From positions 96,001 through 160,000 of the IMG/VR virus record IMGVR_UViG_3300025584_000449: a stretch of 64,000 bases of DNA. One strand, 5' to 3'. The position numbers and the translations under genes were made by a program. This DNA comes from a virus. Within the stretch, counting starts at the first letter, position 1. The number at the start of each line of letters is the position of its first letter. Positions 20,696 through 28,746 of the stretch are shown here, piece by piece. The notes below the pieces were generated by a model, which made no database searches, had not been told where the DNA came from, and was given only the letters and a program-made list of their open reading frames with translations.

Positions 20696-21199
20696 TTAGT
20701 GAATCCAACAGTCTCCGATCACAGGTTCTACTTCCATAGGCACTGACGGAGCATAATGATTAAACGCTTTTATCATTTCTAATGATAACATGCCCGCGAC
20801 TTCATCAACTTCATCCTTATGTACTTCTAATAAAATTTCGTCGTGAACTGCGTTGATTATCATAGCATCATATTTGTTATCTCTAATTGATTCACTCGTT
20901 TTCCATAAAGCTCGTTTAGTAACACTAGAACCAGTACCCTGGAATGGTAAGTTTTTAGCAATGTTCATAGCATGGCTATGATGTTTTGGATTATCAAAAT
21001 CCATTGAACTTAAATCTCTTCGTCTACCATCAAGCGGGCTAAATGCGTATCTTAAATCTTCTGCACTGTCGGTAAAATCTTTAATTAGTTTAGCGATTTT
21101 AGGGAAGGTTAAGAAGTAAGATCTTAATAAGCCAGATGCTTCAGGTATTGAAATTTTTAGAACAGCTGATAATCTCTTAGCACCCATTCCGTAAATAAC
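20696..21199 (-). CDS. polA: DNA polymerase family A, exon 2 (C-terminal polymerase)
   Basis: After splicing it reads VIYGMGAKRL...NLPFQGTGS...VHDEILLE (end of motif B, motif C). Confidence 0.9.
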   Translation of the reverse strand, partial: VIYGMGAKRLSAVLKISIPEASGLLRSYFLTFPKIAKLIKDFTDSAEDLRYAFSPLDGRRRDLSSMDFDNPKHHSHAMNIAKNLPFQGTGSSVTKRALWKTSESIRDNKYDAMIINAVHDEILLEVHKDEVDEVAGMLSLEMIKAFNHYAPSVPMEVEPVIGDCWIH

Positions 21200-21741
21200 C
21201 AGGAACCCTCTGGTTTACCAGAGGCCCGGACTATCCCTTTATGTAACGACCTGTTACTTGGTCTCGTGTGCAATGGTGTTTTTGATGACATTTCTTACAT
21301 AGAACTTCTAAATTTTCTATATTATTATTTTGTCGATTATGATCTTTATGATGAGTCAGGATATTTTTTTCTGACTCACATCGATTACAAGTTTTACCAT
21401 AATATTCAAAAGCCCGTAAACTAAAATTTCTTATTCCGTTTTTATACATGTGGTTATCTTTTCCTGATTGATTACCACCAGAACCACTATATGGTTTTTT
21501 AATTAAACCTTTTTTAATTCTCCACGCGTGAGAGTTAAATGCGTTTCTACATTTATCTGAACAGAATTTTTGTCTACGTTTTGGAAGTACATTGTCACAC
21601 TTTTTACATACTCGTCGTCTAGTCTCTACACTTTCCTGCTTCTTCAGGCTTAGCTCGGGATTGCCACCACCATTATGTGCTGAGGTTTCCCCGAATTTGG
21701 CGAGTTTGTTTTCGGCATTATTTATTTTATTCATTATTCAT
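21200..21741 (-). ncRNA. Group I self-splicing intron (542 nt) in polA
   Basis: 5' exon ends in U with P1 TTTCGGT / GCCGAAA; P AAATTCGGGGAA, Q AATCCCGAGC, R GTAGAGACTAG, S AAGGGATAGTCC; P9 hairpin CCTCTGG-TAAA-CCAGAGG; terminal G; splicing restores KAINFG-VIYGMG. Confidence 0.92.
21231..21734 (-). mobile_element. Intron-encoded HNH homing endonuclease
   Basis: Zinc finger CKKC..FCSDKC; HNH CNRC...HHKDHNRQNNNIENLEVLCKKCHQKHH; lies inside the group I intron. Confidence 0.85.
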
Positions 21742-22995
21742 ACCGAAATTGATGGCTTTAGCGGCATCACGCTCTTCTTTAGTAATACTATCATAGTTTC
21801 TATTGAACAGGATAGCGGCACAGTAGGCATGCAAATCTTTTCCAGTTCTCAAACATTCAATAAACTTATCTTCTTCACTCATATGAGCTAGTAGTCTAAG
21901 TTCCTGATTTGCGAAGTCCGCTGCGACTATTCTATAGTCTAGATCTTGTGCTGTAAAAGCAGCACGATATACAGCACCTGCTGGTATATTCTGCATATTA
22001 GGTTTGGTACTGGCATATCTACCAGAGTCTGTGTTACCTAATTGCCAGAAACTAGAATGAACTCTACCTGTTACAGAGTTTACATTATTATCTAGAAATT
22101 CCTGTCCGTATGTAGTAACTAATTTCTTTCGTTTTCTGTACTCTAGTAATAGTTTAATTACTGCATGATTTTGTTTTTCAAGTTCTTGTTTATTAGTAGA
22201 GGTTAATGTTACATTACATATCTTAGGCAATAATTCCAACATTTGTTTAGGAGAATCATAATTTACCGTAGGTGACCCAAAAAGATCTACTGAGCAGTGT
22301 GGAGCGAACGCTTCATCCAGCTCAACCTTTAAATCAATAGCGGCCTTTAATGCTATATCTTTTAAGGCAAGCCATCTTTTTCTATCTAAGTGTATACCAT
22401 TCAATTCTAACTCAGCCGTAGCCCGCACAGTAGAATTTTCTAAATGGGCTAGTTTACTCATATCTCTTTGTCTGATAAACTTGTCCAATTTAGTATGCAG
22501 CGGTAATAAGTATTTAACGTCATCACCAGCATACTTAATTTGTTCCTCTGAAAATTGATCACCAAACTTCATACCTACGAAGCTTTTCTGTAAATCCTTA
22601 GAGACAGTCTCTCCAAGATATTTATCTACTACTGCGTCAAAACTATGTTTTGGTATGTTTTTACCCTGTGTCAACAAGTAATCTGCTAATAATGTGTCTT
22701 TCATATTTAAAAGATCAATGTCAAAATTAGCCCTGGTCATAACATAGTCAAACTTAGAGTTGTGTGCTACTTTAGCAGTATCAGGCTTTGCTAGTAATTC
22801 TAGAACAGGAAATATACTAGTACCAAGTCTCGCAACATCTAGTACATACTGAGTATGCTCGGTGCCTATTTGTATTAGAAGTACTTCATTCGTATGAGGA
22901 TCTAGTCCATTAGTTTCTACATCATACCCGATTATACCTCTAGTTTTTATAAACCTCTCTACTATTGGCACATCTTCTGGTTTTGAAATAAACAT
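21742..22995 (-). CDS. polA: DNA polymerase family A, exon 1 (3'-5' exonuclease and N-terminal polymerase)
   Basis: Exo I DVETNG, Exo II AHNSKFD, Exo III YAGDD; motif A DFANQELRLLAH; motif B RDAAKAINFG; spliced product 585 aa by arithmetic. Confidence 0.92.
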
Positions 22996-23811
22996 TTAAT
23001 CTTCTTGCATATGTATTTGTAATTTAGTTTTGCGATGATTCATCTGCAACTTTTCAATTACTTGTTTTTTAATTTGTCTTATACGTTCTCTAGTTAATCC
23101 AAAATCATCACCGACTTCTTCTAATGTATAATTACGTATCTCTCCGATACCAAAGTACATTTTAATTATCTGCTGTTCACGTTCGGTAAAATCTTTTAAA
23201 ATATCTAGAATATCATCCGTTAAATATTCACGCTCAACATCTGTGCTAGGAGGGTCATCTGAGCTAGGAATTATTTCATGGATGTTTGTTCCTTCTTCTG
23301 TTTTCTTATCAATGTCTACATAGTGAAACAATAATGAATTTATATCATCGAAGATTTCATGTTGTTGTAGTTCATGATGTAGTTCATCAAAAGATGGGTC
23401 TCTGCCTAAAGTTTGTTCTAAACTACTTTTGATTTTATTTATCTTACCAACTAGGCCGATCTTGTTAGCCGGTAATCTAATAAGTCTTGCATTTTCATGA
23501 ATAGCATTAATAATAGATTGTCTAATCCACCACACCGCATAAGTAATAAACTTAAACGATTTAGATGTATCAAACCTATCTAACGCTTTCATAAGTCCTA
23601 AATTACCCTCACCAATTAAGTCTTCTAATTGAATACCTTGGCCTTGATACTGTTTAGCGACACTTACAACAAAACGCAAATTAGCAGTGATTAGTTTATT
23701 CTTTGCATGTTCGTTTCCAGCTTGTGCTTTTCTTGCAAGTTCTAATTCTTCTTCTTTAGTCAGAACTTTATTGTTTTTGATTTCGTTTAAATATTGCGTT
23801 AAGGCTGACAT
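22996..23811 (-). CDS. RNA polymerase sigma70-family factor (short RpoD/SigA-like)
   Basis: Region 1.2 YLNEI..LTKEEE; region 2 ANLRFVVSVAKQYQ..DLIGEGNLGLMKA..FKFITYAVWWIRQ; region 4 TLEEVG..FGLTRERIRQI. Confidence 0.92.
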   Translation of the reverse strand: MSALTQYLNEIKNNKVLTKEEELELARKAQAGNEHAKNKLITANLRFVVSVAKQYQGQGIQLEDLIGEGNLGLMKALDRFDTSKSFKFITYAVWWIRQSIINAIHENARLIRLPANKIGLVGKINKIKSSLEQTLGRDPSFDELHHELQQHEIFDDINSLLFHYVDIDKKTEEGTNIHEIIPSSDDPPSTDVEREYLTDDILDILKDFTEREQQIIKMYFGIGEIRNYTLEEVGDDFGLTRERIRQIKKQVIEKLQMNHRKTKLQIHMQED

Positions 23812-23835: not shown

Positions 23836-23865
23836 AAAAAAGAGGAGCCATTTCTGACTCCTCTT
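23836..23865 (-). terminator. Rho-independent terminator after the holin-like gene
   Basis: Stem AAGAGGAG / CTCCTCTT with an adjacent A-run on + (U-run on -). Confidence 0.7.
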
Positions 23866-23888
23866 CATGGGCCTATAGGTTGTTTATT

Positions 23889-24164
23889 TTACTTTCTCTT
23901 CTTAGTAACTTCAGGCTTTCCGCCATTAGTAGCAGCTTTATGAGCACTATATAGCATAGTACCACCGCCACCTAGTAAGAACGCATCAGTAAGCAGCGCT
24001 TGCATTTGTACGCCTTGTTCTGATCCCCAGATACCGGCAACTAATGCGCCAAGTGCAAATGGGATTAAAGGCCACAATCTCTTAGGAACAGCGCTTTTTA
24101 CATAGTTAGTAACAATAGGAATACCAACCACGGCAATCGCATAAATTGAGTCAAAGTCTAACAT
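23889..24164 (-). CDS. Holin-like small membrane protein
   Basis: 91 aa, 2-3 hydrophobic segments, basic C-terminus (KKRK); has its own late-type promoter and terminator. Confidence 0.55.
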   Translation of the reverse strand: MLDFDSIYAIAVVGIPIVTNYVKSAVPKRLWPLIPFALGALVAGIWGSEQGVQMQALLTDAFLLGGGGTMLYSAHKAATNGGKPEVTKKRK

Positions 24165-24263: not shown

Positions 24264-24860
24264 TTAAAAATTAAAAGAAAATACGGGTGGACTAGTGTCA
24301 AATCTATGCCAATTAAGGATATACTGAGATCCTATCACAGCCACAATTTTATTTCCTTGTTGGATGATATCATTATCTAGCTCAAACTGTAGCTGACAAC
24401 TTCCATCTTCCGCATCCTCTGGACCTAATGTATCTAACATTTTTTCCAAAGTATTCTTTTCAGATGTAGTAAAGGCAGCTATTGTTCTACCTTCTGATCT
24501 TAAATCGATCCAATGGGTTCGACTATAAACATGACAATATTCAAATAAGAGCCGCCTGAACTTTGGGTTGTCCACGGCACTTACAATACAATCATATCCG
24601 TATAAATCTCTTTCATCTGTAATTCTTTTTTCTAAAGCTTTAAACCCATATCTAGCATGTAATACTGCTGCTTTAGGGTCCATTATATCTTCGTCTTCAA
24701 AATTTTGATAAGAAATATTTTTTGCTTCTACGTGGTCATCGTCTGCTATAGTTATTTCTACGTTACTGTCAGGTAATTGTTCCCAACAAATTAAGTCGTA
24801 TAAATTAGCAGCAAGCCAACTTCCTATTCCACCAGCACCTACAATTAATATTTTTTTCAA
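24264..24860 (-). CDS. E1/ThiF-family ubiquitin-like activating enzyme
   Basis: GAGGIG nucleotide-binding loop, ADDDHVEAKNISYQ, K, SAVDN..FR, candidate catalytic Cys in DGSCQ; no CxxC zinc pairs; TTG start overlaps the JAB stop. Confidence 0.85.
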   Translation of the reverse strand: MKKILIVGAGGIGSWLAANLYDLICWEQLPDSNVEITIADDDHVEAKNISYQNFEDEDIMDPKAAVLHARYGFKALEKRITDERDLYGYDCIVSAVDNPKFRRLLFEYCHVYSRTHWIDLRSEGRTIAAFTTSEKNTLEKMLDTLGPEDAEDGSCQLQFELDNDIIQQGNKIVAVIGSQYILNWHRFDTSPPVFSFNF

Positions 24861-25312
24861 GTTACTAGTTCTCTTTCATCTATGTCATGACATATAGCTG
24901 GTACCCACATAAGATGTTCCCGATCACCATTATAATAGTAAACACCAAAGGTCTTATATTTAGGAGAATATATAATGTATATTCCCTTATAACCGGCCTC
25001 TCGAACGTCTGTTATTGAGGGATATGGTTTGTTATTAGGATGTGTATGGTACACCCCTATAAAATCATACTTAGCATCATCGTTATAATGAGTGGTCTCT
25101 TTTATAACATTTAACCATTCTTCTGGGTGAGGCTGGTAATCTTCTTTACCATTGAGTCCTGCTATTACATTGGTAAGTGGTATAAACTTTTCTATGTGCC
25201 ATTCGTTTTTGATTTTAGTGCCGATAAAAGCCCCGCACACCTCGTGCACGGGGCTTGAATCGCCATATATTTTTAACTCCTGAACTATCTCAGGAGTAAT
25301 GAAAACTTCCAT
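24857..25312 (-). CDS. JAB/MPN+ metalloprotease (deubiquitinase-like)
   Basis: Complete JAMM motif: E (EVCG), HxH (YHTHP), S-x2-D (PSITD). Confidence 0.88.
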   Translation of the reverse strand: MEVFITPEIVQELKIYGDSSPVHEVCGAFIGTKIKNEWHIEKFIPLTNVIAGLNGKEDYQPHPEEWLNVIKETTHYNDDAKYDFIGVYHTHPNNKPYPSITDVREAGYKGIYIIYSPKYKTFGVYYYNGDREHLMWVPAICHDIDERELVT

Positions 25313-25536
25313 TAGCCACCAATTAGTGTGTTAGCTAAAGTGATGTCTTCAGCATTTAAAAGATCTTCAATGCCCACAGTGTCAGGATTAACCTGACGGC
25401 CATCTACATAAGCCCACTTACTGTTGTTTGTGCATTGCTCTTGCAACTCTGCAAGGGCCTCTGCACCAGTGCCTTGAAACTCTGTGTGACCTTCAGCGGA
25501 TACGATCTTTAATGTGATTTCTTTTTCTTTTGCCAT
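25312..25536 (-). CDS. Ubiquitin-like beta-grasp protein (ThiS/MoaD/SAMP-like) ending in Gly-Gly
   Basis: 74 aa; strand-strand-helix-strand pattern, AYVDGRQV, C-terminus ITLANTLIGG-stop; stop overlaps the JAB start (TAATG). Confidence 0.8.
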   Translation of the reverse strand: MAKEKEITLKIVSAEGHTEFQGTGAEALAELQEQCTNNSKWAYVDGRQVNPDTVGIEDLLNAEDITLANTLIGG

Positions 25537-25551: not shown

Positions 25552-27930
25552 TTAAAGTGTAGTTATTTCTTTTGCTACTAAGTCATCGTTGTGTAGTGCA
25601 TATAATCTATTTACTAGCCTATCCATACCAACTTGAGCAGCATTTCCTTTATCAACAATACAAATATACTTTCCAGAATTGTAGTCAAAGACCTTGCAAT
25701 CATTGTGATTATTAGAGTCAGGCTCTAATGATCCTTTTTCAACAAAGTAAGTTCTTATTTTGCCTTTTATTTTATACCCTTTGACTCTTCCTCTAGTGGT
25801 GTCTTTTGTTTCCTCTGTTAATTTAAATAACTTAATGGTGTCAGTTAGTAGTTCCTGACTCTTCTTTAAAGCTTCAACATAAGCTTTTCGTCCAGCAGTT
25901 ATAATATCTTTAACATCGTCTACGGTTACACCCTCTACTATTTTTTCATTAAGTAGTAGATCTACCACATCTAAAATACTTCTTTTATTTGATATTGTCA
26001 AGAATCTATTTGTATTACGAATTCTGTATGAGTTCCCATCTAGAACCATAGAGGTTGTACGACCTTTTCTAGTAATCGGGAATTTTATAGAGAATTGATT
26101 GTAATTATTATGTCCTGGAGATGACCCCATTACATCACTTACTCCACTAATATTAATACCACGGTGCAGTAATTTATGTAATTTTAACGAACATTTTCTA
26201 ACCGAGTCTAGGAAATAATCGAAGTCCTCCTGGGTCTCAAAGCACAAAGCTCGCTCGAGACATTCATCAACTTCATTCTTATTAATACGATTTTCATTAA
26301 TGTAGTATCTTGTAGAGGTCACACCTCTTGTAGAGGTGGATGATTTTATCTCAAGATTAAAATTAACGTTACCTATTGTACCAGCGGTGCTCTTACTACC
26401 CAGACTTAAATAACTTAAAAATGTTGCGTAAACAAGATCCCAGTCAATGGAATTAGGATCTGTGTTTCTTAACATCTTATCAAATACATCATTAAGCCAT
26501 CTGTCGTGCCCTGTATAGGTATTCTTATCAATAGAAAGTGTTTGTCCTGCGTAACTAATAGAGTCCTCAGTTATATCAATACCGTTTAATTTAGTTTTCT
26601 TTATTGTTTCTAAATTATTAATAACTTTGGTTATCTTCTTAGTCATTATGTTTTTACTTTGAACTACTTTTTGAGTGCGTTCTTCTTTTTTCATGTGCAG
26701 TCTCAAGATAGTATTCAAAGTACCATTATCTAAAACAACAACTCTATCTTCACTAGCCTTTGTCTTTAGATAATTTTCGATTATTACTTTATTAAGCATA
26801 ACCGGGGCAGGGTCTGTTAATACAGCTTCACCCAGCGTTAGTAATGGGTCATCATTACCTCTATTTGCCACAGTACCATCAGGACCAAGCTTGTAATATA
26901 CTAAGTGTCCAGCATCAGCGTAGTCATACCAAGAACTAGTTGCTTCTACTTTAAACCAACTAAAGTAATCTCCTGCACAAAATTCTGCTGCGTTATGAAT
27001 TCGTGGAGTGTTGTAATAAGGAAATGTACTTGAGCTACCGACTACACAATATCTAGTGTTATGATGTTCATATACTGAATGTATGTATCTAAACTTGTTA
27101 TTTTCTTTTAATAACTCTAGTTGCTCAGGAGTAGGCTCTTTAGTAGTAATCTTATCAAAGTTTGTTGTATAAGATTCTTTTAAAAATAAATCTATCTCAT
27201 TTATCTTTAATCCAGAAGCGTTAGAATTATATCCACGCCTGCTGCTTAAGAGCCAATTACCAAAACTATTTATTGGCAGAGTTGAGTCTTTGCCAAAATA
27301 AAAGTTTTTTGTATAAGATAGAGCAACCTGTGCATTACTAAAATGACAGGTACCCAATAACTGAAATTTATTATTGTTCTCTCCGTACCCTCTGTTTCTA
27401 TCTAGAAATGAGTTATAACTGGAGAATCGTTCTTGAATTTTACTTATCTTTTCAAGATCAGCTAGATCTGTATCCTTTAATGAATCAATAATAAAGGTGT
27501 CTTTATCAGTAATAATAGGACAGTTACTTCCATAGTTATTAGTCTTTGTCAATGAATAAAAGAATTTTATCTTTCCTTTAGGTATCATCTTATTTATACT
27601 TTTAACTTGCTCTTCTGGCAAAGTTTCAAAAAGTTCACCTATGTCTTGATTAATTTCTTTTGCCCAATCGTAATTAGCTATAGCAGTTGTTACGTCACCC
27701 TGTGAAGTAAAGTTATAGTCATTATCCAGTAAAAACTGATGGTAAGCTAACATTTTTCCTGTATTAAATAAAAACCCTATATGACTTCTTAAACTACTAT
27801 CCCCAGACTGTAATACTGGGCTTGACTTAAACTTAAACGAGGTCTTTTTAAGTAAGTCATAGTCTGCTTCTTCAAATCCTAGATCATATAATGCGTTTAT
27901 TACTTTTAATCTACCGGACGGTATTCTCAT
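25552..27930 (-). CDS. Large protein of unknown function co-transcribed with the Ubl-JAB-E1 genes
   Basis: 792-aa ORF ending 15 nt before the Ubl start; C-terminal YICIVDK...DRLVNRLYALHND..VAKEITTL. Confidence 0.6.
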   Translation of the reverse strand: MRIPSGRLKVINALYDLGFEEADYDLLKKTSFKFKSSPVLQSGDSSLRSHIGFLFNTGKMLAYHQFLLDNDYNFTSQGDVTTAIANYDWAKEINQDIGELFETLPEEQVKSINKMIPKGKIKFFYSLTKTNNYGSNCPIITDKDTFIIDSLKDTDLADLEKISKIQERFSSYNSFLDRNRGYGENNNKFQLLGTCHFSNAQVALSYTKNFYFGKDSTLPINSFGNWLLSSRRGYNSNASGLKINEIDLFLKESYTTNFDKITTKEPTPEQLELLKENNKFRYIHSVYEHHNTRYCVVGSSSTFPYYNTPRIHNAAEFCAGDYFSWFKVEATSSWYDYADAGHLVYYKLGPDGTVANRGNDDPLLTLGEAVLTDPAPVMLNKVIIENYLKTKASEDRVVVLDNGTLNTILRLHMKKEERTQKVVQSKNIMTKKITKVINNLETIKKTKLNGIDITEDSISYAGQTLSIDKNTYTGHDRWLNDVFDKMLRNTDPNSIDWDLVYATFLSYLSLGSKSTAGTIGNVNFNLEIKSSTSTRGVTSTRYYINENRINKNEVDECLERALCFETQEDFDYFLDSVRKCSLKLHKLLHRGINISGVSDVMGSSPGHNNYNQFSIKFPITRKGRTTSMVLDGNSYRIRNTNRFLTISNKRSILDVVDLLLNEKIVEGVTVDDVKDIITAGRKAYVEALKKSQELLTDTIKLFKLTEETKDTTRGRVKGYKIKGKIRTYFVEKGSLEPDSNNHNDCKVFDYNSGKYICIVDKGNAAQVGMDRLVNRLYALHNDDLVAKEITTL

Positions 27931-27949: not shown

Positions 27950-28315
27950 TTAGTTTTTAAGGATACTTAGTACTAAGAATCCATTATCGTCATTATCTGC
28001 GTTTACCTCTTTACCTATTAATTCCTGTAATGAGTTAACTTCGTAGAATTTAATTAATTTCGCTAACCCAGTATAACTGGATAGTTCTCCATCGTCATTT
28101 ATATTGATCCAAAGTCCTGCTTTTTTAGATTCTCCACGATCCTCTAGAAGAAGGTCACTAATCTTGAACTCTCTTCCTTCTGCATCGCGGACTGTAAAAA
28201 TGGCTTTACTGCTAGGACCACTCGGTAAATTAACTTCTTCTTGGTCAATATTTATGACTGTTACTGTCTTATTGGAGCGTCCTACTCCAATGTTTAAAAA
28301 ATCTTTATCGTTCAT
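27950..28315 (-). CDS. Hypothetical protein (beta-rich, possible OB-fold)
   Basis: 121-aa ORF in the same operon; no confident family. Confidence 0.5.
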   Translation of the reverse strand: MNDKDFLNIGVGRSNKTVTVINIDQEEVNLPSGPSSKAIFTVRDAEGREFKISDLLLEDRGESKKAGLWININDDGELSSYTGLAKLIKFYEVNSLQELIGKEVNADNDDNGFLVLSILKN

Positions 28316-28710: not shown

Positions 28711-28746
28711 AAAAATAAGGGAGAGAAGCAATTTGCTTCTCCCCCG
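28711..28746 (-). terminator. Rho-independent terminator downstream of the RNR gene
   Basis: Minus strand GGGGGAGAAGCA-AAT-TGCTTCTCTCCC followed by TTATTTTT. Confidence 0.7.

What the first reader, a model, noticed from the sequence alone, without database searches (positions are those of the whole stretch)
25552..27930. 792-aa orphan upstream of the Ubl: candidate E2-like partner or dedicated substrate
Seen in sequence: the ORF ends 15 nt before the Ubl start and sits in the same apparent operon. No separate E2 is recognisable among the neighbours. Its last ~60 residues contain KVFDYNSGKYICIVDK (Cys codon 25660-25662) followed by a helical DRLVNRLYALHND..VAKEITTL. This loosely resembles the G-x-I-C-L environment of E2 active sites. 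Inference (weak): the C-terminal domain may be a divergent E2 fused to a large targeting region, or the protein may be the conjugation target.
Basis: inference. Interest (0 to 1): 0.7.

Follow-up and report, generated by a model that had tools for sequence, protein, structure and literature searches.

The report
Viral E2-like partner of Ubl system
The 792-residue "orphan" is the constant fourth partner of a ubiquitin-like tagging kit carried by uncultured tailed viruses, and it ends in a small ubiquitin-conjugating-enzyme-like domain with a never-changing cysteine, so it is probably the kit's missing carrier (E2-like) enzyme, of a family nobody has described.

Summary
The ORF (25552-27930, minus strand, 792 aa) stops 15 nt before a 74-aa Ubl ending in Gly-Gly. 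JAB and a 198-aa ThiF-type E1 follow. The Cys codon is at 25660-25662.

The protein is not an orphan. A profile search finds 506 cluster representatives, none annotated. Cys757 is invariant in 137 of 137 full-length relatives. It is also kept in 47 of 47 short (~390 aa) viral relatives that match residues 514-792 (hhalign E 2e-8).

The protein, Ubl and E1 stay adjacent in every viral locus with enough flank, across at least four gene orders and unrelated genome contexts.

Best reading (about 0.5): a new E2-like carrier domain fused to a variable targeting region. An earlier follow-up on the neighbouring genes in this scan reached a similar view.

The parts
25552..27930 (-). Gene for the 792-aa protein ('BIG', P0001), first long gene of the Ubl module
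   Evidence: ORF list and translation. 506 family representatives. AlphaFold model with pLDDT 81.5 and pTM 0.76.
25555..25869 (-). C-terminal UBC/UEV/RWD-like domain, residues ~688-792. Order of elements: end of the long helix 670-702, strands 706-711, 714-722, 727-731 and 747-749, the Cys757 loop, then helices 769-780 and 782-785. Remote homolog of Pfam DUF7737.
25660..25662 (-). Codon of Cys757, the proposed thioester-forming (catalytic) cysteine in the motif G-x-Y-I-C-I-V-D-K
   Evidence: Invariant in 137/137 and 72/72 family members. Kept as (P/S/A)(I/F)CIDN in 47/47 short homologs.
25555..26391 (-). Conserved core, residues 514-792, shared with the ~390-aa short viral homologs ('SBIG'). 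Contains the motifs YINxxRINxxE, RALCF and VSKCSLxxH, the long helix and the Cys domain.
   Evidence: hhalign SBIG vs BIG: 95.4%, E 1.9e-8, SBIG 87-389 aligned to BIG 514-792. Conservation profile.
26392..27930 (-). Variable N-terminal region, residues 1-513, absent from short homologs; proposed targeting/substrate-selecting part. Contains a small beta-barrel (~275-372) with near-invariant R293 and D339.
25312..25536 (-). Ubl, 74 aa, ends LIGG*
   Evidence: The C-terminal GG is followed directly by the stop in 20 of 21 related loci; one has GGNAN.
24857..25312 (-). JAB/MPN+ metalloprotease, 151 aa, intact E...HxH...S..D motif
   Evidence: Prok-JAB E 1.4e-13. Desampylase NF041370 E 6.8e-17, below its cut-off. 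Alignment.
24264..24860 (-). Minimal ThiF-type E1, 198 aa, with GAGGIGSW nucleotide loop and invariant Cys155 (SCQ)
   Evidence: ThiF E 1.8e-15. PRTRC ThiF TIGR03736 E 1e-12, below its cut-off. Invariant columns.
27950..28315 (-). 121-aa unknown protein just upstream. Syntenic in this viral lineage only, so probably not a core part of the module.
   Evidence: tblastn 34-43% identity upstream of BIG in 19 of the 20 first-set loci with upstream sequence (p139 instead in L009/L014). Absent from the rearranged loci. No family hit.
28719..28745 (-). Terminator-like hairpin after the RNR gene; likely upstream boundary of the transcription unit
   Evidence: Pattern scan: 12-bp stem plus T-run; 7 sites found against 2.2 expected. 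Inference only.
23839..23866 (-). Terminator-like hairpin after the 91-aa gene; likely downstream boundary of the unit p139-p121-BIG-Ubl-JAB-E1-p91
   Evidence: Pattern scan. Inference only.

Best explanation
The 792-aa protein is the E2-like component of a virus-encoded ubiquitin-like conjugation module, possibly an E2/E3 hybrid. Proposed steps follow; only the anatomy is shown, the chemistry is inferred. (1) The minimal E1 adenylates the Gly-Gly end of the 74-aa Ubl and probably holds it on its invariant Cys155. (2) The Ubl passes to Cys757 of the big protein. Cys757 sits in the loop between strand 4 and helix 2 of a stripped-down UBC-type domain (residues ~688-792), the position of the catalytic Cys in E2 enzymes. 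The invariant neighbours are D760/K761, G768-x-D770, R775 and N781-D782 just after helix 2. By analogy with the loop after helix 2 in E2s, they would shape the active site. (3) The conserved middle region (514-687) would dock E1 or Ubl, since this E1 is about 50 residues shorter than ThiF/MoeB at the C-terminal end. The lineage-specific N-terminal ~510 residues would choose the target, a host or viral protein. (4) The JAB protease reverses or edits the tag. The module lies among early replication and nucleotide-metabolism genes of a ~180-kb myovirus-like phage whose sigma factor points to a Bacteroidota host.
Confidence: 0.5

Rival explanations
1. The protein is a non-catalytic partner. Its UEV/RWD-like C-terminal domain would bind the Ubl or E1 non-covalently as an adaptor or scaffold, or the protein is itself the dedicated substrate tagged on a lysine. 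The E1 would then transfer the Ubl directly, as in E2-independent archaeal sampylation.
Against: A purely structural or binding residue would rarely stay Cys in 184 of 184 proteins at 16-30% identity. The invariant polar residues cluster around it: D760, K761, D770, R775, N781, D782. A substrate would be expected to show a conserved lysine rather than a conserved Cys loop.
Confidence: 0.25
2. The module is a sulfur-carrier pathway of the ThiS/ThiF or MoaD/MoeB type, not a protein tagger. E1 would make a Ubl thiocarboxylate, and Cys757 would serve as a persulfide relay or as the active site of an enzyme that inserts sulfur into a nucleotide or cofactor. This would fit its place among nucleotide-metabolism genes.
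For: The E1 matches ThiF/MoeB-type models (ThiF TIGR02356 E 8e-9, MoeB weak). The Ubl's GG end is also typical of ThiS/MoaD. The neighbours are RNR, dUTPase, RecU and PolA. JAB enzymes also serve sulfur-carrier systems (Iyer et al. 2006, PMC1779556).
Against: No rhodanese, cysteine desulfurase, PP-loop ATPase, ThiG/ThiH or MoaE-type partner was found in the protein or its neighbours. The fold hits are to UBC/UEV/RWD, not to sulfurtransferases. All E1 matches lie far below the families' cut-offs.
Confidence: 0.1
3. The protein is functionally unrelated to the Ubl genes, for example a replication or transcription accessory protein. On this reading it lies beside them only through inherited gene order.
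For: Within this lineage the whole block RecU-dUTPase-RNR-p121-BIG-Ubl-JAB-E1-sigma-PolA is syntenic, so 21/21 alone proves little.
Against: Adjacency survives rearrangement and transfer to unrelated contexts: L044/L079 E1-BIG-Ubl, L058 Ubl-BIG-JAB-E1, and six loci without any of the window's flanking genes. The short homolog is kept with E1 and Ubl in a second, probably archaeal, virus group.
Confidence: 0.05

Closest known systems
UBC-fold E2 enzymes, especially minimal prokaryotic E2-likes: BilB of Bil systems, the E2 domain of CBASS Cap2, and the Bub E1-E2-Ubl complex (9eav)
   Different: No HPN motif and no helices 3/4. No HMM or sequence similarity to any E2 family. The domain is the C-terminal ~13% of a 700-800-aa protein. 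It is encoded by viruses rather than by a host defence island. The E1 is a 198-aa stand-alone ThiF-type enzyme, not an E1-E2 fusion.
Pfam DUF7737 (PF24879), the C-terminal domain of bacterial DUF4132/MolR-type proteins
   Same: Closest by sequence. hmmscan hits 5 of 16 relatives (best E 3.9e-4). hhalign gives 86.9%, E 4.2e-6, with YICIVDK aligned to YLCIVP. Both domains lie at the extreme C-terminus. The ESM Atlas structure search also lists a DUF4132/DUF7737 cluster first (TM 0.55).
   Different: The window's own protein does not reach the model at E<=10, which lies far below the 27-bit cut-off. No DUF4132 region is present, and homology does not extend upstream. Cellular DUF7737 proteins have no E1 nearby in 5 genomes, and one subgroup has Ser for Cys. 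The function of DUF7737 is unknown.
UEV and RWD domains (TSG101/Vps23 UEV, GCN2 RWD, kinetochore and FANCL RWD)
   Different: Those domains lack a catalytic Cys and are non-enzymatic binding modules. Here a Cys and a ring of polar residues are invariant.
E2/E3 hybrid enzymes (UBE2O, BIRC6)
   Different: This is only an analogy of architecture. No sequence relation exists, and the eukaryotic enzymes have full UBC domains with HPN.
Archaeal SAMP / UbaA / HvJAMM1 system and the PRTRC ThiF cassette
   Same: The JAB is closest to the desampylase model (E 6.8e-17). The E1 is closest to PRTRC ThiF (E 1e-12) and weakly matches UbaA. All use small GG-ended Ubls.
   Different: All scores lie far below the models' cut-offs. 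From my own knowledge of that literature, sampylation has no known E2, whereas this module always carries the Cys-domain protein.

Membership tests
E2 / UBC superfamily (catalytic) | UBC-like alpha/beta fold (helix 1, four antiparallel strands, helix 2...) | tested here: inconclusive
E2 / UBC superfamily (catalytic) | Conserved catalytic Cys in the loop between strand 4 and helix 2 | tested here: met
   Cys757 lies between strand 747-749 and helix 769-780. It is invariant in 137/137, 72/72 and 47/47 relatives.
E2 / UBC superfamily (catalytic) | HPN motif upstream of the Cys | tested here: not met
   The consensus is VYxYPxGxYICIVDK with no His-Pro-Asn. Several prokaryotic E2-likes also lack the conserved His (Iyer et al. 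2006).
E2 / UBC superfamily (catalytic) | Match to UQ_con or Prok-E2_A-E profile models | tested here: not met
   No hit at E<=10 in six-frame searches of the whole record. None among 72 members scanned at E<=1. None against PDB sequences.
E2 / UBC superfamily (catalytic) | Genomic association with an E1 and a GG-ended Ubl | tested here: met
   every locus with enough flank has them, in at least four gene orders.
E2 / UBC superfamily (catalytic) | Forms a thioester with the Ubl and transfers it | not testable with these tools
   Needs biochemistry. No multimer prediction was available.
Pfam DUF7737 (PF24879) | HMM score over the 27-bit gathering cut-off | tested here: not met
   The window's domain gives no DUF7737 hit at E<=10. 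Five of 16 relatives hit at best E 3.9e-4. hhalign gives 86.9%, E 4.2e-6. It is a remote relative, not a member.
Pfam DUF7737 (PF24879) | C-terminal position after a DUF4132 region | tested here: not met
   C-terminal position: yes. DUF4132: no hit among the families listed, and homology does not extend upstream of the domain.
Bil (BilABCD) anti-phage system | Ubl + E1 + UBC-type E2 + JAB in a bacterial defence locus, recognised by PADLOC models | tested here: not met
   The same four roles are plausible. PADLOC has no hit for the big protein or the Ubl, the JAB hits generic JAB models (5.5e-9), and the E1 hits E1-E2 models only weakly (2.6e-5). The locus is inside a virus genome.
Type II CBASS Cap2/Cap3 | E1-E2 fusion (Cap2) with a CD-NTase and effector | tested here: not met
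   The E1 is stand-alone at 198 aa. No CD-NTase or effector was found among the neighbours. Cap3 matches only at E 3.6e-5.
ThiS/ThiF or MoaD/MoeB sulfur-carrier pathways | E1 equivalog score plus downstream sulfur-using enzymes (ThiG/ThiH, MoaE, rhodanese, desulfurase) | tested here: not met
   The ThiF and MoeB models score far below their cut-offs (35 vs 275 bits; 16 vs 449 bits). No partner enzymes are in the neighbourhood.

The most novel reading that the evidence does not exclude
Tailed viruses of bacteria, and probably of marine archaea, run their own ubiquitin-like conjugation cascade. Its carrier would be a previously unrecognised, HPN-less UBC-fold family (BIG and the short form). In the large forms it is fused to a target-selecting region, giving a viral E2/E3 hybrid that tags host or viral proteins early in infection. 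By extension, the DUF7737 domain that ends DNA-damage-inducible DUF4132/MolR-type bacterial proteins would be a hidden UBC-fold (Cys or Ser) transfer domain.
Probability: 0.3. Interest if true: 0.85.

Novelty: new variant of a known kind. Interest (0 to 1): 0.7.

Why it matters
Ubiquitin-like conjugation in prokaryotes is so far known as a host tool (Bil, CBASS Cap2/Cap3, Bub, sampylation, Pup). A complete kit carried by viruses would show the other side of the conflict using the same chemistry. The kit appears in hundreds of contigs: 230 by E1 and 247 by the short form.

The protein studied here is the one component that no profile model recognises. If it is the carrier, it defines a new E2-like family with a minimal catalytic domain and a simple signature: C-x(2,3)-D ... 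G-x-D ... R ... N-D. That gives a direct biochemical test using three small proteins and one Cys mutant.

It also gives a first functional hypothesis for Pfam DUF7737 and its DUF4132/MolR partners, which are induced by DNA damage and of unknown function.

Tried and rejected
- **Family libraries.** Pfam, PHROGs, NCBIfam and PADLOC scans of the whole protein gave nothing usable.
- **Sequence searches elsewhere.** tblastn against GenBank phages gave no match. Whole-protein and domain profiles against PDB sequences gave only chance helix matches such as 14-3-3.
- **ESM Atlas.** The feature search gave no usable lead. Its structure list rests on a poor model (pLDDT 0.40) and served only as a pointer to DUF7737.
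- **Foldseek.** Searches of the whole model and the domain model against PDB were not significant.
- **Isolated domain model.** Its long N-terminal helix filled the unbiased VIA list with coiled coils, so that search was uninformative apart from GCN2 RWD.
- **Cellular genomes.** Pattern search in 185,579 species genomes found no relatives, so there is no cellular copy or prophage context.
- **Longer homology to DUF4132.** Extending the DUF7737 homology upstream failed: BIG 47%, short form 0.6%.
- **Other limits.** A4 was too divergent for pattern search. The p121 protein was rejected as a core module part because it is absent from the rearranged loci.

Full report
**What is there**

The window is bases 96001-160000 of a 179.9-kb IMG/VR virus record. 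The record carries a large terminase and a tail sheath. It also has a split PolA with an HNH insert, a sigma-70-type factor, a class II RNR, a dUTPase and RecU. On the minus strand an ATG ORF at 25552-27930 encodes 792 aa.

The ORF stops 15 nt before a 74-aa protein that ends LIGG*. Next come a 151-aa Prok-JAB protease (E 1.4e-13) and a 198-aa ThiF-family E1 (E 1.8e-15). Two strong terminator-like hairpins, at 28745-28719 and 23866-23839, bracket p139-p121-BIG-Ubl-JAB-E1-p91. This suggests one transcription unit, but it rests on a pattern scan only.

**Not an orphan, but unannotated**

Pfam, PHROGs, NCBIfam, PADLOC and GenBank phages give nothing for the protein. A word-index search found four relatives at 33-36% identity. 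A profile built from them then found 506 cluster representatives, 200 of them at E<=1e-30.

In an alignment of 137 full-length members (20-33% identical to the query), four columns are invariant: D339, Y728, C757 and D782. Near-invariant positions include K761, R775, A778, L779, N781, T791 and L792, and in the middle region N545, N550, C563, S581 and L582. The N-terminal ~510 residues are poorly conserved and full of gaps.

**Structure**

AlphaFold2 with this alignment gives pLDDT 81.5 and pTM 0.76. The last part reads as follows:
- a long helix, 670-702;
- strands 706-711, 714-722, 727-731 and 747-749;
- a short bridge, then Cys757 in a loop;
- helix 769-780 and a short helix 782-785.

This is the order of elements of the UBC core up to helix 2, with the Cys where E2 enzymes carry theirs.

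Foldseek found nothing significant. VIA-align against 48,161 PDB representatives told a different story. Residues 689-790 account for about 28 of the 50 listed rows, and nearly all of those are UBC, UEV or RWD proteins:

|---|---|
| Vps23 UEV | 4.8 |
| Ubc9 | 4.7 |
| SEA-complex RWD | 4.6 |
| BRISC UEV-like | 4.4 |
| Tsg101 | 4.3 |
| Chain D of the BubCD-BubB-BubA complex (9eav_D) | 4.3 |
| FANCL | 4.2 |
| Cap2 residues 9-152 | 4.2 |
| BilB (8tyz_C) | 3.5 |

The fold assignment is therefore consistent but weak. It cannot separate a catalytic UBC domain from non-catalytic UEV or RWD domains.

**Sequence relatives of the domain**

There is no HPN motif; the consensus is VYxYPxGxYICIVDK. No E2 model matches, neither in 72 members, nor anywhere in the record at E<=10, nor in PDB sequences.

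The one recurring weak hit is Pfam DUF7737, seen in 5 of 16 C-terminal domains with best E 3.9e-4. I fetched seven DUF7737 domains from Bacteroidota genomes. They lie at the extreme C-terminus of ~860-aa and ~1700-aa proteins. The alignment runs as follows:
- ...VKGxxxxYxIHxGS... matches GYxIxGKxRxY;
- YLCIVP (or YLSILP in the long proteins) matches YICIVDK;
- LLAxD matches ALxND.

hhalign gives 86.9% probability and E 4.2e-6. The Atlas structure search independently lists a DUF4132/DUF7737 cluster first. Homology does not extend upstream of the domain. ThiF genes are not near these bacterial genes in five genomes. DUF4132 proteins are uncharacterised and reported as DNA-damage-induced (PMC8533742).

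**Linkage to the Ubl system**

All 21 viral loci found through the protein have Ubl, JAB and E1 downstream in the same order. These loci are syntenic over the whole replication block, so this alone is weak evidence.

I then searched through the E1. It occurs in 230 viral contigs, and 80 loci were fetched:
- 26 loci carry BIG. Gene orders include E1-BIG-Ubl (L044, L079) and Ubl-BIG-JAB-E1 (L058).
- Six of these loci share none of the window's flanking genes.
- 50 loci carry a ~380-480-aa protein upstream of E1.
- 4 loci are cut by contig ends.

The short protein is homologous to residues 514-792 (hhalign 95.4%, E 1.9e-8). It keeps the Cys in 47 of 47 cases, in the motif GPICIDN...GDQFAxRALALLND. 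Its invariant columns (C, D, G-D, R, N-D, T) match those of BIG.

The reciprocal search found the short form in 247 viral contigs. Of 80 fetched, 68 have both E1 and Ubl, and the other 12 lack only what their contig ends cut off.

The short-form loci carry a TFIIB-type zinc-ribbon protein. ORFs whose C-terminal sequences look like a chaperonin and a DNA ligase are also present, by eye only. This gene set resembles magroviruses of marine group II archaea. The magrovirus papers do not mention ThiF or ubiquitin.

**The partners look functional**

- The Ubl's C-terminal GG is followed directly by the stop in 20 of 21 loci; one has GGNAN.
- The E1 has GAGGIGSW and an invariant Cys in SCQ.
- The JAB keeps E...HxH...S..D and is closest to the desampylase model.
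- The E1 is closest to PRTRC ThiF, far below its cut-off.

**Interpretation**

The best-supported reading is that residues ~688-792 are a minimal, HPN-less UBC-fold carrier domain whose Cys757 accepts the Ubl from the E1. Residues 514-687 would be a conserved docking region. The N-terminal ~510 residues would be a lineage-specific targeting part, making the large forms E2/E3-like hybrids.

What is shown: the anatomy, the conservation, the predicted fold class and the linkage. What is inferred: the thioester, its direction of transfer, and the targets.

The main rival is a non-catalytic UEV/RWD-type adaptor or a dedicated substrate. It is supported by the equal scores of UEV and RWD domains, the missing HPN motif, and the E1-less cellular DUF7737 relatives with Cys/Ser variation. 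A sulfur-carrier role and mere synteny are less likely.

**Novelty**

Full-text searches found no description of a prokaryotic-virus-encoded Ubl, E1 and E2-like module or of this family. An earlier follow-up in this scan on the adjacent Ubl-JAB-E1 genes (e1-5814073) reached a compatible conclusion.
- the family's size and its conserved core;
- the short form in a second virus group;
- reciprocal linkage counts;
- the DUF7737 relation;
- the fold test with its limits.

**Limits**

Noticed in passing
L046-L101 and L189-L268 (for example L046:2388-6555): A second virus group keeps Ubl, a ~390-aa short homolog and E1 spread over ~4 kb. A TFIIB-type zinc-ribbon protein (Pfam) lies between them. Nearby ORFs have C-terminal sequences that look like a chaperonin and a DNA ligase (by eye). 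This resembles magroviruses of marine archaea. No JAB was detected there with my HMM or with Pfam in L046.
   Followed up: partly
L046:2630-3425; L049:2176-2634; L086:3049-3444: Small Cys-rich proteins (CxxC...CxxC-like, ~95-130 aa) sit between the Ubl and the short homolog. They could be zinc-ribbon or treble-clef (RING-like) partners of the system.
   Followed up: no
L005:11865-12801; L010:12462-13361; L012:11872-12655; L013:11893-12667: An insertion of about 0.8-0.9 kb separates the Ubl and JAB genes in four related loci. It may be a mobile or homing-endonuclease gene.
   Followed up: no
L021:11526-11759: One Ubl homolog ends GGNAN instead of GG. It would need trimming, a plausible second job for the JAB protease.
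   Followed up: no
L182-L188 (Bacteroidota genomes G003, G052, G092, G140, G160, G168): DUF7737 ends two protein classes. The ~860-aa proteins have YLCIVP and the ~1700-aa proteins have YLSILP, a Cys/Ser switch at the position of the viral invariant Cys.
   Followed up: partly
window 22996-23811 (-): The phage sigma factor is 44-48% identical to primary sigma factors, mostly of Bacteroidota (Flavobacteriales, Bacteroidales, Marinilabiliales). This suggests the host phylum.
   Followed up: partly
window 20696-22995 (-): The family A DNA polymerase is split into two ORFs by a 167-aa HNH endonuclease ORF. Several related loci also have interrupted polA or RNR genes.
   Followed up: no
window 23889-24164 (-): A 91-aa protein after the E1 weakly matches a holin PHROG (E 1.1e-6). 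It is conserved only in L009/L014, so it is probably not part of the module.
   Followed up: no
L201 and L247 (IMGVR_UViG_3300021958_000021, 184,733 bp): One contig carries two different copies of the short-homolog locus about 91 kb apart. It may be two related genomes joined in assembly.
   Followed up: no
BFVD entries A0A516M0H5, A0A516LSW3, A0A516MG04: Three unnamed viral proteins of 416-452 aa match the whole model (Foldseek E ~1e-7). They are probably short-form family members already in UniProt without annotation.
   Followed up: no
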